The position numbers are program-made. 13,819 nucleotides of DNA from a virus (taxonomy: Duplodnaviria > Heunggongvirae > Uroviricota > Caudoviricetes), in the IMG/VR virus record IMGVR_UViG_2534681934_000027; one strand, 5' to 3'. This document shows, one piece after another, positions 3,001-9,000 of the stretch. Within the stretch, counting starts at the first letter, position 1. Every line of letters begins with the position of its first letter.

Positions 3001-6000
3001 AACCACACCGGACGCAGCCGCCGAAGCCATCAAAACGCTGATGCACGCGCTGATTGATATTTCTGTTATCGCGGACAGGGCACATAAGCACGCCACCAGC
3101 GAAACAGAATATGCCGGTGCTTTCGTTCCTCACTCACTGGCTGTCATGCAATTTAGTGCTGATACGGCGCTGAATGAGGCCAAAGCTATCCTGATTGCTG
3201 ATTGTGAAAATGGGGGGGTTATGCGTGATGATCGTTTTAATTCCCTGAAACAGGAATTTTCCGGCGTTCCTGATGATGCGGCTGATGCGCTTTCGTCAAT
3301 GCCAGAACTTATTAGAGCGGCTTTTTTCTTACTTTCCACGAGAGAATATAAATCAACGGGGCTTGATGTACTGAATATCGCCGCCGATTATGCGGAATAT
3401 GTGGCAGAGGCGCGTTATAGAAGAAAATTTCCTGAGGATGTAAGCCATGCGTGATATTTACCACCAAACAATAGACCGCGCATTTCTTGCACTTTCTCAC
3501 AGTGAAAACATGATGGAAATATTGCGCATATGGCTTGAAACACTTGGCGACAATGAACGCGACAAACAAAAATCAAGAATTGCCACGGCATTAATAACGC
3601 TTCTTGAGCCTGTAATAATGGAACTGCAAGAAATAGATCTATTGCACGACAGATATAAAGAACAGCACACCGGAGAATAAAAATAATGAAACTTAAATAT
3701 TCTGGCTTAACTGCCAGTGGCAACACTCACCCTAAATTTACGCGCGGTGATATTTACCGCGACCAGTACGGCGGCACGGTAATGATTAAGGGCGTGGAAG
3801 AACGGCGCGTAACCTACCGCCGTGAAGGTTACGAATATGATTGCGTGATGCCTGTTTATCAGTTCCGGCGTGATTTTTCTCTGGTACAGACCGCGCCGCA
3901 TAACGTGCCCACCAGCAACGCCAGGGCACGGGCAAACATCCAGAAGCTGAAAACCATGGTTAACGGATTCAGGGGCAAGAAATGAAAAGCGCACCGAACT
4001 TAAAAAAACAGCCTTACGACAAGATGACCGAAGTCATTATTTTTGCGGGTAGTGATGCCTGGGCACATGCGAAACAGTGGCAGGAACAGGACGGGCGACT
4101 GGCTGGCGATAATGTGCCTCCCGTTGTGCTGGCTGATGATCAACTGGATGAACTGGCAGAACTGAGAATCATCGACGAGGGGCGCTATTGTGTCCGGCTG
4201 TACAAGGCAGGCCACATCAGGCCATCAAATATTAATGCCATTGCGCACAAGCTGGCGGCGGCGGGTGTAACTGATGCGAATTATTACCCCGAAGGGATGC
4301 ACAGCCATATGCGGGAGAACTGGCGCGAATACCTGGAACGGGTGCGCGGGAAAGAGCCGGCGGAAGAAAAAAACCACCAGCGAAAAACCACGCTACCGAT
4401 GAGCGTTGGATCTACCGGATACGACACGCAACTGGATTACGTGGTTAAGGGGATTATTCCGGCGGTATCGCTATGCAGCATATACGGGGCTAGCGGGTCC
4501 TATAAATCATTCCTTGCCGGATCGTGGGCGTGCCATGTTGCCACTGGTCGCCAGTGGGGAGGCCGCAGGGTTGCACATGGTGCGGTTCTCTATGTGGTTG
4601 GTGAAGGCGGTATAGGTGTTCCGCGTCGTGTAAAAGCCTGGGAGGTTGTGCACGATGAGCAGGTGAAAAATCTGTATCTGGTAAACCGCCCCATCTTTCC
4701 GGCTGCCCCGCTTGATGTTGATGAAATGGTTATCGCTGCCCGTCAGGTGGAGCGGGAAACGGGTAAACCTGTACGCATGATTATTCTGGATACGCTGGCG
4801 CGTTGCTTTGGTGGGAATGATGAAAATGATTCCCGTGATATGGGGGCGTTTATCCGTGGTTGTGACGAACTGAAACGACGCACAGGGGCCACGGTGCTGG
4901 TGGTTCACCATTCCGGCAAGGATGAGACGAAAGGCGCGCGCGGTTCCAGTGCATTTCGTGCTTCGCTGGATGCTGAATACCGGATACGCAGGGAGGACGC
5001 AGGAAGCGAAGCGCTGGTTATCTCATGCACCAAAATGAAGGACGCGGAGGAACTCAAAGAAGCCGCATATGACTTACGCGTGGTGGAGCTTTTTACCGAC
5101 GCTGACGGTGAATTAATCACGTCGCTGGTGGTGGTGGATGATCCGCGCCCTCCTGTTGAACTGGAGCGCATCGAGGAGGCAGGGAACAAGACGGAAAACC
5201 ATACCGCGCTATGGGGGTGCATCCGTTCACGCACACAGAACGGCGACAAGTGCACGATCCCGCTGTTACGTGATGACATGAAAAAGCTGGGGTATGAAAT
5301 GAAAAACTTCCGGCGCTGGCTGTACAAGCTGGAAAAAGATGGGGTTATTCGTATCGATGGGGATGATGTAGCGCCGCTATAAAAGTGAGGAGCAAAAGCG
5401 AGGGGGATAGAAAGAGGGCCAAAATTAGCCCGCTCTCCCTCACTTTTCGACCTGTATACATCCTCAAAAGTGAGGGGTAAAAAAATACTTATGAAACACA
5501 CACATAGAAAAACCGAAAATCCCAACTGCGACGAAGTGAGACGCTTGAAAAAGTGAGGCGAAAAAGTGAGAGGTTGCGAGAAATGACCCAAAAACGCAGA
5601 GACAGAACAGAGCCAAAATATAAAGCGTTAGACATGACTGAGCACACCTTAAAGGTGGCAATCAGAACGATAGACCGCCACACGCGGGAAGGATACGCGA
5701 AGGAACATCCCGACCTGATAAGCGCATTCATGACCACGGCGGCGGCAAACTTTGCCACGCTGACAGAACGGGAGATTGCCGAAGCGGAACAGGTAACAAC
5801 CATCAACGTTAAAACCGGAGAGGTGGAATTATGACGGCACAGATAGCCGCTTACGGGCGGCTGGTGGACGACCCGCAGGTAAAACAGACCAGCAAGGGCA
5901 CACCGATGACGCTGGCGCGTATGGCGGTATCTTTGCCATGCAGCCAGGCACAGGACGGACAGGCGACGTTATGGTTATCGGTCATCGCATTTGGCAAACA

Positions 6001-9000
6001 GGCCGGCTTCCTGGCTAAACATCAAAAAGGCGATGTTGCCAGCGTATCCGGCACGATGCAGGTAAGCCAGTGGACCGGACAGAACGGAGAAACGCGGCAG
6101 GGCTGGCAGGTTATCGCAGACAGCGTAATCAGTGCCCGCGCGGCACGTCCAGGCGGGAACAGACGCAAAACCACAGGCACACAGGGTAATCAGCCACCAG
6201 CGGGAGGCGATGACCCTTACGGTGATGATATTTCGTTCTGAGGGGGTGACGATGGTACATGACCGCATAGCGGAGGAACTGGAGGCGAAAGGCTTTTACC
6301 GGAGGGCGGCGGCGCGATGGGGTGAAGTCATGCAGCTGGTGGAGACAGACAAGGAACGGCATCACATCACGATGCGACGGCTGGAATGTTCAAGGAAGGC
6401 ACAGAGGGCACCGGAGCCGCCGGATAATTTCGGAGACCTGAAAAAGGCAGTCGATCGCACTTATGCCGAAATGGGTATAGATGGTGCTGGTGATGAAATA
6501 TGGCGCAATTACCAGGACAGCTAATCAAACAGCCGGAGAAATCCGGCTTTTTTTGCACCAGTTGAAACGGTATGGCGCATTACCGGGTTTTCGTCACGGT
6601 CAGGCATAGTTACTATCTGAAACAAACAGACACAACAGAGGAAAAAACAATGCCGATGAAATTTGATGAGATATTAAAACAGCGTGATAAATACCATGCT
6701 GACAACATGGAGACGATGAGCATCAATGATTACCGCGCATTCCTGGAGACGGGCGCACTGATTGAAAAGGATCAGCATGGTTTTGTGAGATGTGCTCTAT
6801 CCGGTGAAATGCTGGCGGTAAATCCTGAACAGATAGATGCATTGATAGAATTTCTGAAAGAGATCAGAGACTGAGCCAGCACACAGCACACATAGCCGGA
6901 GCAATCCGGCTTTTTTGCGCCCAAAAAAAGCCCGATAAGGTCAGAGGGTTCTTATCGGGCTTTTGCATATGAGGTTTTTGGATGCACTGGCGTTCGTGAT
7001 CGGGATAATCATTTCATAATTTGCAACATAACTCAATATCATTGCATAAAATGCAATTCTGATTATAATCAGGACTGGATAAACATCCAGTTATGATTTT
7101 TTTAGTCGAAGAGGAATTTCTTACTATGGCTGAAGAGAAAAAAAGCGGTGTTTCGGTGTACATAAGCCCCGAAATCGTGGAGGTGCTCAAGCAGCGCCAC
7201 AAAAAAAACTATGAAGCTGGCGTTGCGGCTGGACTGGATCCGCTGATGACGCCGGAGCCGTCGATAGGTTCACTTGTACGCTCTTATTTACTTGCGGCGC
7301 TTGGGATGCATAAAAATTATGGGGGTGAATAATGGCAGGCAAAGCAACGGCACTTAACACTAACCAGCTTTTCATGTACCTGAATCGCGGGGATATTGCG
7401 GATTTTAAATTCAGCCCTCTGTTTACCACGCTGTTTTTCCCGAACGTGGCGACATTCAGCACGCAAAACATCATGCTGGATACCCTGGACATTGAAGAAG
7501 TCACCATGTCGGCGTTTTGTTCGCCTATGGTGGGTAGCCAGGTTCAGCGCGATAAAGGGTACGAAACCAGCACAATCAAACCTGGCTACATGAAGCCAAA
7601 GCACGAAATCGATCCAACGAAAACCATCATGCGCATGGCTGGAGAAGATCCGGCACAGCTTAACGACCCTACCTATCGCCGTATGCGCCTGATTACTGGC
7701 AACATGCGCCGCCAGATAAACGCCATTAAGGCACGCGTGGAATGGCTGGCGGTGAATGCGGTAACGACCGGAAAAAACATCATTGAGGGCGAAGGCATAG
7801 AACGCTATGAAATCGACTGGAAAATACCGGAAAACTGCATCATAGAGCAGGCCAAGGGTAAAAAATGGTCCGAGCAGGATAAAGACATGCACGACCCAAT
7901 CTATGACATCGAGCTTTATGCTGATCAGGCTGGTTGCCCCGCAAACGTCATGATTATGGGCGCTGAGGTATGGCGCACATTACGCAGCTTTAAAAAATTC
8001 CGTGAGCTGTACGATCTTTCCCGTGGTTCAGAATCCGCCGCCGAACTGGCCTGTAAAAACCTGGGCGAAGTGGTGAGCTTTAAAGGCTATCTTGGTGATC
8101 TGGCCCTTATCGTCTATTCCGGCAAATACACTGACAGCGATGGTACCGAAAAATATTTCCTTGAGCCTGATTTGCTGGTCCTGGGTAACACCAACAATAA
8201 AGGGCTGGTGGCCTATGGTGCGATAATGGATCAGGAAGCGGTAAGAACGGGCGCAACACAAAACATGTTTTACCCGAAAAACTGGATTGAGGACGGCGAT
8301 CCGGCGATTGAGTACGTGCAGACACACAGTGCACCGCAGCCGGTACCGGCAGATATTCGCAAATTTGTTACCGTCAAAATTGGTTAACGGGGGGATTCTA
8401 TGGACACTCCATACATTGAGTTATTTGCAGGCAGTCAGCAGGTATCCACGACGTTGGTACATTTTGCCGCTGATGCTGGCGTTATTCAGGAATTTACCCC
8501 GCTGATGCTGGCAGACAATGGCGAGTTTAAGCCGTGGGATGGTCAGGAATCTGGCAAGGCTGTTTATCTGACCTCGTACCCTGTGGACACGTCAAAGCAG
8601 AAATCAGCACAGTGTTACAAGACGGGGATATTCAATATTGCCGCCGTTAACTGGCCTGAGAGCGTCGACACCGATGCGAAAAAATGCGCCGCCTTTGCGG
8701 GTTCCGGCGTATCCGTTCAGCCGCTGGCCCGATAAGCAGGGGGAACGATGGCAACGAATGAAAGCATCATGACGCTACCGCTGGCGAGTAAATTTAAAGT
8801 CGAAGCGCGGGCAATGGCTGACAGAGGTTTATCAACCTATGAGGCCGTATATCAACTAAACAAACTGGAAGAGCAGGACAAGCCGTGCGCTGATGCGATT
8901 ATGGCGCTTCATGAGCATAAAGACTATCAGCCGCTGTTGCGTGCAATGGCAAACGTGCCTTGTATCGATGTTGGTACGGCTAAAAGCATCCTTAGCATGA

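What the first reader, a model, noticed from the sequence alone, without database searches (positions are those of the whole stretch)
5831..6241. Island-encoded SSB-like protein with an acidic C-terminal tail
The OB-fold pattern and DDPYGDDISF tail mimic the host SSB C-terminal tip that recruits replication and repair partners. A satellite SSB could support island replication or compete with host or helper SSB interactions.
Basis: partly seen in the sequence, partly recalled or inferred. Interest (0 to 1): 0.45.

Follow-up and report, generated by a model that had tools for sequence, protein, structure and literature searches.

The report
Phage-satellite copy of bacterial SSB
The gene is a real, already annotated single-stranded-DNA-binding protein carried next to the replication origin of a phage-satellite island of E. 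coli O157:H7, so the call is correct but ordinary; the one curiosity is that its partner-recruiting tip carries the same proline-to-serine change as the classic ssb-113 mutant.

Summary
Window 5831..6241(+) encodes a 136-aa protein that matches Pfam SSB (E 9e-16). AlphaFold2 gives a confident OB barrel for residues 1-103 and a disordered tail, and the closest solved folds are all bacterial SSBs. It ends in DDPYGDDISF, a version of the bacterial SSB C-terminal tip.

RefSeq already names the identical protein "single-stranded DNA-binding protein". The island is a phage-inducible chromosomal island (PICI) between roxA and phoQ. The gene lies about 260 bp downstream of an iteron-type origin that follows the RepA-like helicase, in the operon small ORF-ssb-perC-terminator.

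The ssb-perC pair is constant in 80 related islands, while the replicase (three families) and the head module (lambda-like or HK97-like) are swapped. This includes the EcCIEDL933-type cf-PICI in the same strain.

The family tip is ...DDIPF. This allele has Pro to Ser at the penultimate residue, as in E. coli ssb-113, and occurs in 361 of 5,426 complete E. coli genomes.

Most likely role: an accessory SSB that coats island ssDNA during helper-induced replication and couples it to host replisome proteins. This is inferred, not shown. One paper already lists SSB in PICI replication modules; I found no functional test. Low interest.

The parts
5831..6241 (+). ssb gene, 136 aa plus stop. It is identical to RefSeq WP_000126695.1, 'single-stranded DNA-binding protein'.
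5831..6139 (+). OB-fold ssDNA-binding domain, residues 1-103. W48, F54 and W81 align with E. coli W54, F60 and W88. E. coli W40 aligns with Cys37 and H55 with Leu49.
6140..6208 (+). Short linker, residues 104-126 (AARPGGNRRKTTGTQGNQPPAGG), predicted disordered. Net charge is +4 and it is Gly/Gln/Pro-rich. It is about 23 aa, against about 56 aa in E. coli SSB, and varies in length among relatives (proteins of 136, 140/141 and 149 aa).
6209..6238 (+). Acidic C-terminal tip DDPYGDDISF (SSB-Ct motif). The penultimate Ser (codon TCG, 6233-6235) replaces the family's Pro.
5583..5834 (+). Conserved 83-aa ORF (phrog_1231, function unknown). Its stop overlaps the ssb start (ATGA). It was detected in 77 of the 80 related IMG/VR islands (my tally of the rows).
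5381..5575 (.). Probable island replication origin. Six of the window's eight AAAGTGAGG-type iterons fall here, in two sets on either side of an AT-rich stretch, immediately 3' of the helicase gene.
   Evidence: organisation as described for Gram-negative PICIs in PMC6092414
3982..5382 (+). RepA-family helicase (AAA_25 domain), the island's replication protein.
6252..6524 (+). PerC-family regulator gene, starting 11 nt after the ssb stop. In 62 of the 70 related islands where both genes were detected, the perC match starts 14 nt after the end of the ssb match, the same spacing as here.
6531..6555 (+). Intrinsic-terminator-like hairpin plus T-run that closes the helicase-ORF-ssb-perC transcription unit.

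Best explanation
The gene encodes a genuine bacterial-type SSB that belongs to the early (replication and regulation) operon of a phage-inducible chromosomal island in E. coli O157:H7. The proposed sequence of events is as follows. A lambdoid helper phage induces the island. The island's RepA-like helicase opens the adjacent iteron origin. The island's SSB, made from the same transcript, coats the exposed single strands with its OB domain. Its flexible tail presents the acidic ...DDI(S/P)F tip to host SSB-interacting proteins (Pol III chi, PriA, primase and others), so the host replisome copies the island while the host SSB pool is also being drawn on by the replicating helper. Shown here: the identity, fold, tip motif, synteny with helicase and origin, purifying selection, and distribution. 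Inferred: ssDNA binding, oligomeric state, partner recruitment, timing of expression, and any benefit to replication. The Pro to Ser change in this allele may weaken partner binding.
For: Family and fold. Three of the four E. coli DNA-stacking aromatic residues are conserved. The tip motif is conserved across relatives while the linker varies in length and sequence. dN/dS is 0.05-0.21. The gene sits about 260 bp downstream of a significant iteron cluster (8 matches against 2.5 expected; 6 of them within 190 bp) that directly follows the helicase gene. This is the position and layout of experimentally mapped PICI origins (PMC6092414). Homologues occupy the same slot after three unrelated replicase families: RepA/AAA_25, D5_N/DUF5906 and DUF927. 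PMC10111431 independently places SSB with primase and DUF5906 genes in the PICI replication zone. No enterobacterial phage in INPHARED carries a close relative (best identity below 35%), and plasmid copies are rare (39 of 72,556 records), so the clade looks satellite-specific.
Against: No experiment or complex model supports ssDNA binding, tetramer formation or partner recruitment by this protein. Rep plus ori of a related PICI suffice for plasmid replication in E. coli (PMC6092414), so an island SSB is not required for origin firing. The gene stays with perC rather than with any one replicase, so it may not be a replisome component in the strict sense. The penultimate Ser matches ssb-113, which is defective in chi binding. 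This island copy also carries an IS element in terS and an Icd-like pseudogene, so the allele could be partly disabled. E. coli W40 and H55 are not conserved.
Confidence: 0.6

Rival explanations
1. Interference factor. The satellite SSB competes with host SSB on helper-phage replication forks, or titrates host SSB-interacting proteins, and so slows the helper rather than helping the island.
For: The canonical tip could engage the same host partners. Rep plus ori suffice for PICI replication, so the SSB's role may lie elsewhere. The gene is uncoupled from the replicase type. PICIs are known to interfere with their helpers (PMC6092414).
Against: Known PICI interference acts on packaging and capsid size, not on replication. 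The gene's place beside the origin and inside the replication zone fits a cis role. Nothing in the sequence indicates a dominant-negative design. At 26-29% identity to host SSB, mixed tetramers are unlikely.
Confidence: 0.12
2. Relic allele. In this island the gene is a hypomorphic remnant. The ssb-113-like P135S change (plus D59G), together with IS629 in terS and a pseudogenised Icd-like gene, would mean the island is decaying and this SSB no longer does useful work.
For: A 1310-bp IS element interrupts terS and there is an Icd-like pseudogene. ISF is the minority tip: 17 of 80 IMG/VR loci and 5 of 120 cluster representatives. P176S disables chi binding in E. coli SSB. D59 is G only in this allele.
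Against: The ISF allele is intact in 361 complete genomes of several serotypes, including O103:H2 12009, whose island has an uninterrupted terS. Among wider relatives that end in Phe, 36 of 81 have a non-Pro penultimate residue, so Ser may be tolerated. There is no frameshift or premature stop.
Confidence: 0.15
3. Immune-related role. The satellite SSB modulates, triggers or shields against host defence systems that sense foreign SSB-coated ssDNA, such as Retron-Eco8 or DARNA.
For: Phage SSBs are established triggers of Retron-Eco8, and SSB-bound ssDNA is reported to activate DARNA (titles and abstracts). Satellites often carry defence or counter-defence cargo.
Against: Neither the SSB nor any of eight neighbouring proteins matches a PADLOC model. 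The gene sits in the replication zone, not in the accessory-gene slots. No specific feature points to this role.
Confidence: 0.05

Closest known systems
SSB of the EcCIEDL933-type capsid-forming PICI (RefSeq WP_000126691.1, at the tqsA site of the same O157:H7 strain)
   Same: It is 97% identical and also 136 aa. It occupies the same slot (replicase, small ORF, ssb, perC) and has the same linker.
   Different: It has the canonical ...DDIPF tip, D59 and Y92. Its neighbours are a DNA-primase-family replicase (PGAP name, 605 aa) and a complete HK97-type head and terminase module, in place of a RepA helicase and a lambda-type E/D/Nu1 module. Its function is also untested in the papers I could search.
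E. coli chromosomal SSB (178 aa; PDB 1EQQ)
   Same: It has the OB fold and W54, F60 and W88 equivalents. The architecture is the same: OB domain, disordered linker, then an acidic tip ending D-D-I-x-F.
   Different: Identity is only 26-29%. The NCBIfam enterobacterial model PRK09010 scores 26.7 bits against a cut-off of 260. The linker is about 23 aa rather than about 56 aa, and is basic. W40 aligns with Cys, H55 with Leu, and the penultimate Pro with Ser (the ssb-113 change).
Conjugative-plasmid SSBs (F-type, NCBIfam PRK13732)
   Same: They are also an extra SSB carried by a mobile element in a cell that already has a chromosomal ssb.
   Different: This protein is not a member: 22.4 bits against a cut-off of 265. 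Plasmid copies of this clade are rare. From general knowledge, plasmid SSBs are expressed on entry of the transferred strand, whereas this gene lies in a helper-induced operon.
Phage-encoded bacterial-type SSBs (PHROG phrog_44)
   Same: It is the best PHROG match, E 4.5e-39 over the full length, and has the same domain plan.
   Different: No cultured enterobacterial phage has a close relative. The best INPHARED hits are Staphylococcus, Bacillus and gut-metagenome phages at 27-35% identity. In phages the gene usually accompanies a recombinase (Erf or Sak neighbours), and none is present here.

Membership tests
Bacterial SSB family (Pfam PF00436 / TIGR00621) | Sequence match above the curated cut-offs | tested here: met
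   PF00436 scores 58.2 bits against 26. TIGR00621 scores 54.4 against 53.95, a marginal pass.
Bacterial SSB family (Pfam PF00436 / TIGR00621) | OB-fold barrel with a helix between strands 3 and 4 | tested here: met
   The AlphaFold2 model has pLDDT 89-97 over residues 1-100 and the expected strand-helix order. The top 50 Foldseek PDB hits are all SSBs.
Bacterial SSB family (Pfam PF00436 / TIGR00621) | Conserved ssDNA-stacking aromatic residues (E. coli W40, W54, F60, W88) | tested here: inconclusive
   W48, F54 and W81 align with W54, F60 and W88. W40 aligns with Cys37 in a gapped loop.
Bacterial SSB family (Pfam PF00436 / TIGR00621) | Disordered linker followed by an acidic tip ending in hydrophobic-Pro-Phe | tested here: inconclusive
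   The linker is predicted disordered. The tip DDPYGDDISF keeps D, D, I and F but has Ser for Pro. The family consensus is IPF. Ser at this site is the ssb-113 lesion.
Bacterial SSB family (Pfam PF00436 / TIGR00621) | Homotetramer that binds ssDNA with high affinity | not testable with these tools
   Only monomer prediction was available. The interface residue His55 of E. coli is Leu here.
Enterobacterial chromosomal SSB (NCBIfam PRK09010) and F-type plasmid SSB (PRK13732) | Score above the model cut-off | tested here: not met
   26.7 bits against 260, and 22.4 against 265.
Gram-negative PICI (phage-inducible chromosomal island), as host element of the gene | Integrase, AlpA and a replicase followed by an iteron origin, all on one strand, about 10-15 kb, with flanking att repeats and no lysis or tail genes | tested here: met
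   int, alpA and RepA. Iterons 3' of the replicase. A 21-bp direct repeat lies 47 bp upstream of int and at window 12252-12272. The annotated genes include no lysis or tail gene.
Capsid-forming PICI (cf-PICI, EcCIEDL933 type), as host element of the gene | Complete head and packaging set: capsid, protease, portal, connectors, HNH, TerS and TerL | tested here: not met
   Only the major capsid (E-like), a decoration protein (D-like), a scaffold-like ORF and a Nu1-type TerS are present. There is no portal, protease or TerL. The definition is from 10.1101/2022.09.08.507074.
Gram-negative PICI | Helper-phage-dependent induction, replication and transfer | not testable with these tools
   This needs an induction and transduction experiment.

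The most novel reading that the evidence does not exclude
The small-ORF-ssb-perC block is a self-contained satellite module that travels independently of the replicase and of the capsid genes. Its SSB may not be a simple replication helper. It could be a device for taking over host SSB-partner proteins during helper infection, for example by diverting Pol III, PriA or nucleases from helper DNA to island DNA. In that reading, the widespread natural ssb-113-like ISF allele of the EHEC island lineage would be a tuned, weaker-binding variant rather than a defect.
Probability: 0.1. Interest if true: 0.55.

Novelty: already known. Interest (0 to 1): 0.22.

Why it matters
The finding mainly confirms existing annotation. 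It does show that a satellite-specific SSB clade sits in roughly a third of complete E. coli genomes. A 1.2-kb probe spanning the origin, the small ORF, ssb and perC matched 1,694 of 5,426 genomes. The gene keeps the same slot in both classical and capsid-forming PICIs, yet I found no paper testing what it does. If it proves necessary for efficient island replication or transfer, it would be a new required function in the PICI life cycle. The natural Pro/Ser tip polymorphism would then offer a ready-made allelic series for asking how much SSB-tip affinity a mobile element needs. For pathogen genomics it has little consequence.

Tried and rejected
1. Structure of the translationally coupled upstream 83-aa ORF. 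Single-sequence AlphaFold2 gave pLDDT 53 and pTM 0.31, which is unusable, so I ran no fold search. Homologues from related loci were too similar to build a useful alignment, and locus-derived sequences cannot be submitted to the predictor.
2. A genome-contig scan for species distribution returned only E. albertii and two irrelevant weak hits, because single-protein patterns reach only close relatives.
3. A PADLOC scan of the SSB and eight neighbouring proteins gave no defence-system match.
4. The literature searches for a functional study of a PICI SSB found none: one (PICI, 'single-stranded DNA binding protein', Escherichia coli, satellite) returned no paper, and none of the 16 papers holding 'phage-inducible chromosomal island' and 'SSB' looked like one by title or abstract. 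The cf-PICI papers do not mention SSB in their text. The first search was too broad to be useful.
5. I considered that the window island is EcCIEDL933 itself and rejected it. That element sits at tqsA and has an HK97-type head module, whereas this island sits at roxA/phoQ and has a lambda-type partial module.
6. I considered that the gene derives recently from host or F-plasmid ssb and rejected it on the NCBIfam scores.
7. A Rfam scan found only the IS3-family frameshift pseudoknot and no regulatory RNA near ssb.
8. Oligomeric state and tip-partner docking could not be addressed, because only monomer prediction is offered.
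Full report
**Observation**

A purine-rich ribosome-binding stretch (GGAGAGGTGG) precedes the start. 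The ATG overlaps the stop codon of an upstream 83-aa ORF (ATGA), so the two are probably translationally coupled.

The protein matches several independent references:
- Pfam SSB (PF00436) scores 58.2 bits against a gathering score of 26, E 9.3e-16.
- PHROG phrog_44, 'single strand DNA binding protein', gives E 4.5e-39.
- NCBIfam TIGR00621 scores 54.4 bits against a cut-off of 53.95, a marginal pass.
- Twenty-six solved SSB chains match by sequence.

I built a 74-sequence alignment of relatives down to about 32% identity. With it, AlphaFold2 gave mean pLDDT 84, with 89-97 per ten-residue block over residues 1-100. The strand-helix order is that of an OB fold, and residues 104-136 are low-confidence, i.e. 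predicted disordered. The 50 best Foldseek matches in the PDB are all bacterial SSB OB domains.

**Residue-level comparison with host SSB**

I recalled the E. coli SSB sequence from memory and verified it as identical to PDB 1EQQ chain A. The island protein is 26-29% identical to it.
- Three of the four DNA-stacking aromatic residues are kept: W54, F60 and W88 align with W48, F54 and W81.
- W40 aligns with Cys37 in a gapped loop.
- His55, a residue of the tetramer interface, aligns with Leu49.
- The linker is about 23 residues, basic (+4) and Gly/Gln/Pro-rich. The E. coli linker is about 56 residues.
- Against ...MDFDDDIPF, the tip DDPYGDDISF keeps D, D, I and the terminal F, and has Y for F at position -7.

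Calling this 'mimicry' is misleading. The tip is the homologous motif of the whole family. Among 66 relatives chosen because they end in Phe, the right-anchored consensus is P-F-D-D-(E/D/P)-(I/L)-P-F. The tip is more conserved than the linker, with a majority fraction of 0.52-0.63 against 0.32.

**The tip polymorphism**

Among 120 cluster representatives of close homologues, the commonest tail is DDPYGDDIPF (64), then DDPYGDNIPF (23). Only 5 end in ISF. In 80 IMG/VR loci, my tally of the listed tails is 57 IPF, 17 ISF, 3 IQF and 3 disrupted.

The window allele therefore carries Pro to Ser at the penultimate residue (codon TCG, 6233-6235). This is the change that defines E. coli ssb-113 (P176S). 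That mutant is temperature-sensitive for replication, is damage-sensitive and is impaired in binding the chi subunit of Pol III (PMC3045619).

To count alleles I used 40-nt probes centred on the SNP, so that every 28-nt megablast seed must include it.
- The ISF probe matched 361 of 5,426 complete E. coli genomes. These include O157:H7 strains, O103:H2 12009 and strain H19.
- The matching IPF probe found 225 genomes. That is a lower bound, because the flanking sequence varies.

The exact protein is recorded on at least 1,000 contigs and is named SSB by its sources. The O103:H2 copy differs from the window gene by one nucleotide and also ends in ISF. Among wider relatives that end in Phe, 36 of 81 lack a penultimate Pro. 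The functional cost of Ser in this clade is therefore uncertain.

**Genomic context**

The window is 100% identical over 5400-6600 to many E. coli O157:H7 chromosomes. In strain PV15-279 the island lies between roxA and phoQ. RefSeq annotates this gene order:
- integrase
- AlpA-type regulator
- Icd-like gene and pseudogene
- three hypothetical genes and a DUF4222 gene
- 'helicase RepA family protein'
- hypothetical protein
- 'single-stranded DNA-binding protein' (WP_000126695.1)
- PerC-family regulator
- three further small hypothetical genes
- major capsid protein and head decoration protein
- hypothetical protein
- terminase small subunit

A 21-bp direct repeat lies 47 bp upstream of int and at window 12252-12272, and marks the probable att ends.

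Between the helicase stop (5382) and the small ORF lies a cluster of AAAGTGAGG repeats. Six of the window's eight matches fall within 5382-5571, against 2.5 expected in the whole window and with none of 200 shuffles reaching 8. The repeats form two sets on either side of an AT-rich stretch. This is the position and layout reported for functional origins of Gram-negative PICIs (PMC6092414).

A terminator-like hairpin with a T-run at 6531-6555 follows perC. The ssb gene thus sits in the early operon, about 260 bp from the probable origin.

**How general the arrangement is**

Homologues at 74-82% identity occupy the same slot in two kinds of island:
- canonical capsid-forming PICIs at roxA/phoQ and at a cold-shock-gene/clpS site, behind a D5_N/DUF5906 primase;
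- classical PICIs behind a DUF927 primase.

The same O157:H7 strain carries a second copy, 97% identical with an IPF tip. It lies in the tqsA-integrated island, which has the full HK97-type module and matches the description of EcCIEDL933.

I surveyed the 80 IMG/VR loci by tblastn.
- perC was detected with ssb in 70 loci. In 62 of these the perC match starts 14 nt after the end of the ssb match, the same spacing as in the window.
- The upstream replicase is RepA, D5 or DUF927 in varying combinations.
- The downstream head module is lambda-like (capsid E plus decoration D, with or without Nu1) in 47 loci and HK97-like in 28.

The gene is therefore a stable part of a small-ORF-ssb-perC block, not the partner of one particular replicase.

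No enterobacterial phage in INPHARED has a close relative: the best matches are at 27-35% identity in Staphylococcus, Bacillus and gut-metagenome phages. Only 39 of 72,556 plasmid records have a match. Pairwise dN/dS of 0.05-0.21 shows purifying selection on the family.

**Mechanism**

What is shown: this is a bacterial-type SSB with an SSB-Ct tip, encoded next to the island's helicase and origin, conserved under selection and specific to satellites.

What I infer:
- On helper induction it is co-expressed with the helicase.
- It coats the single strands opened at the origin and at forks.
- Through its tip it couples island DNA to host replisome and restart proteins, at a time when the helper's own replication also draws on the host SSB pool.

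The role is probably accessory. For EcCICFT073, the rep gene plus ori alone maintained a plasmid in DH5alpha (PMC6092414).

Three rivals remain possible:
- competition with host SSB that harms the helper;
- a partly disabled relic allele in a decaying island, since this copy has IS629 in terS and an Icd-like pseudogene;
- an immune-related role, given that phage SSBs trigger Retron-Eco8 and DARNA.

None of these has direct support, and PADLOC finds nothing in the neighbourhood.

**Comparison with what is known, and novelty**

The protein works like, and is a member of, the bacterial SSB family. It is not a member of the enterobacterial chromosomal subfamily or the F-plasmid subfamily, scoring 26.7 against 260 and 22.4 against 265 bits.

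Its host element meets the PICI criteria that can be tested from sequence. It fails the cf-PICI criterion of a complete head and packaging set.

The identity of the gene is already in RefSeq. A published PICI survey already files SSB genes with primase and DUF5906 genes in the replication zone (PMC10111431). I found no paper that tests the function of a PICI SSB.

What this analysis adds is modest: the ssb-113-like natural allele and its distribution, the constant ssb-perC pairing across swapped replicases and head modules, and the satellite specificity of the clade.

**Verdict**

The finding is ordinary and already annotated. Interest is 0.22.

Noticed in passing
window 9191-9266 (+) and 11371-11443 (-): A roughly 75-bp inverted repeat (about 90% identical) flanks the Nu1-type terS gene. 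Each copy contains GTTACG-GGGCGGCGACCT-CGCGG(A/T)TTTT, which from memory is the phage lambda cohesive-end (cosN) sequence and the start of cosB. The 12-mer occurs exactly twice in the window, against 0.01 expected. The left copy matches 89 lambdoid phage records at about 80% identity. The island therefore carries two oppositely oriented lambda-type cos sites, and I did not work out why there are two.
   Followed up: partly
window 7332-9825 (capsid E-like 7332-8387, decoration D-like 8400-8735, scaffold/Nu3-like 8748-9161, Nu1-type terS from 9396): The island encodes only part of a lambda-type head and packaging set: capsid, decoration protein, a protein resembling the C-terminal scaffold part of a head protease, and the small terminase. 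It has no portal, protease or large terminase. It is neither a classical PICI nor a full cf-PICI. This layout is common, occurring in 47 of 80 related IMG/VR loci. It suggests satellites that supply their own shell and DNA-recognition proteins but borrow the portal, protease, TerL and tails from a lambdoid helper.
   Followed up: partly
window 9826-11135: A 1310-bp IS3-family element interrupts the 3' end of terS, with a 3-bp target duplication. It carries orfA (108 aa) and orfB (296 aa) on the minus strand and has an ALIL frameshift pseudoknot at 10684-10800(-). From memory it resembles IS629. It is absent from strain PV15-279 and from O103:H2 12009, so this copy of the island is probably defective in packaging.
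   Followed up: yes
window 5381-5575: This is an iteron cluster (AAAAGTGAGG and variants, one of them inverted) in two sets flanking an AT-rich stretch, directly after the helicase gene. It is the probable island origin of replication.
   Followed up: yes
window 6252-6524: A PerC-family regulator gene (Pfam E 3.9e-43) starts 11 nt after the ssb stop and nearly always accompanies ssb in related islands. PerC-like proteins of PICIs have been reported either to activate or to silence the LEE virulence island (PMC11773190). Whether this one regulates the island's own late genes is unknown.
   Followed up: no
L011 (E. coli O157:H7 PV15-279, 2194164-2214203), ssb at L011 9618-10028: The same strain carries a second satellite at tqsA with a complete HK97-type head and terminase module (EcCIEDL933-like). 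Its SSB is 97% identical and has the canonical IPF tip. O157:H7 therefore has two satellite SSB paralogues that differ at the tip.
   Followed up: partly
window 6526-6553 and 6889-6916: Two copies (89% identical) of the same hairpin-plus-T-run terminator, AGCCGGAG(A/C)AATCCGGCTTTTTT, lie 363 bp apart and bracket the small gene at 6572-6874 (phrog_1957). A third related hairpin lies at 6926-6964. They may act as a regulated boundary between the early and late operons.
   Followed up: no
window 12252-12272: A 21-bp direct repeat, CGGTGTAGTTAATGGTGTAGT, is also found 47 bp upstream of the integrase gene in strain PV15-279. It is the probable attR core and lies about 87 bp from the phoQ stop codon.
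   Followed up: partly
window 5583-5834: A conserved 83-aa ORF (phrog_1231, function unknown) is translationally coupled to ssb. Its C-terminal 65 or so residues are nearly invariant across islands, while its N-terminus varies. In DUF927-type PICIs an unrelated 257-aa protein takes its place. The structure prediction failed (pLDDT 53).
   Followed up: partly
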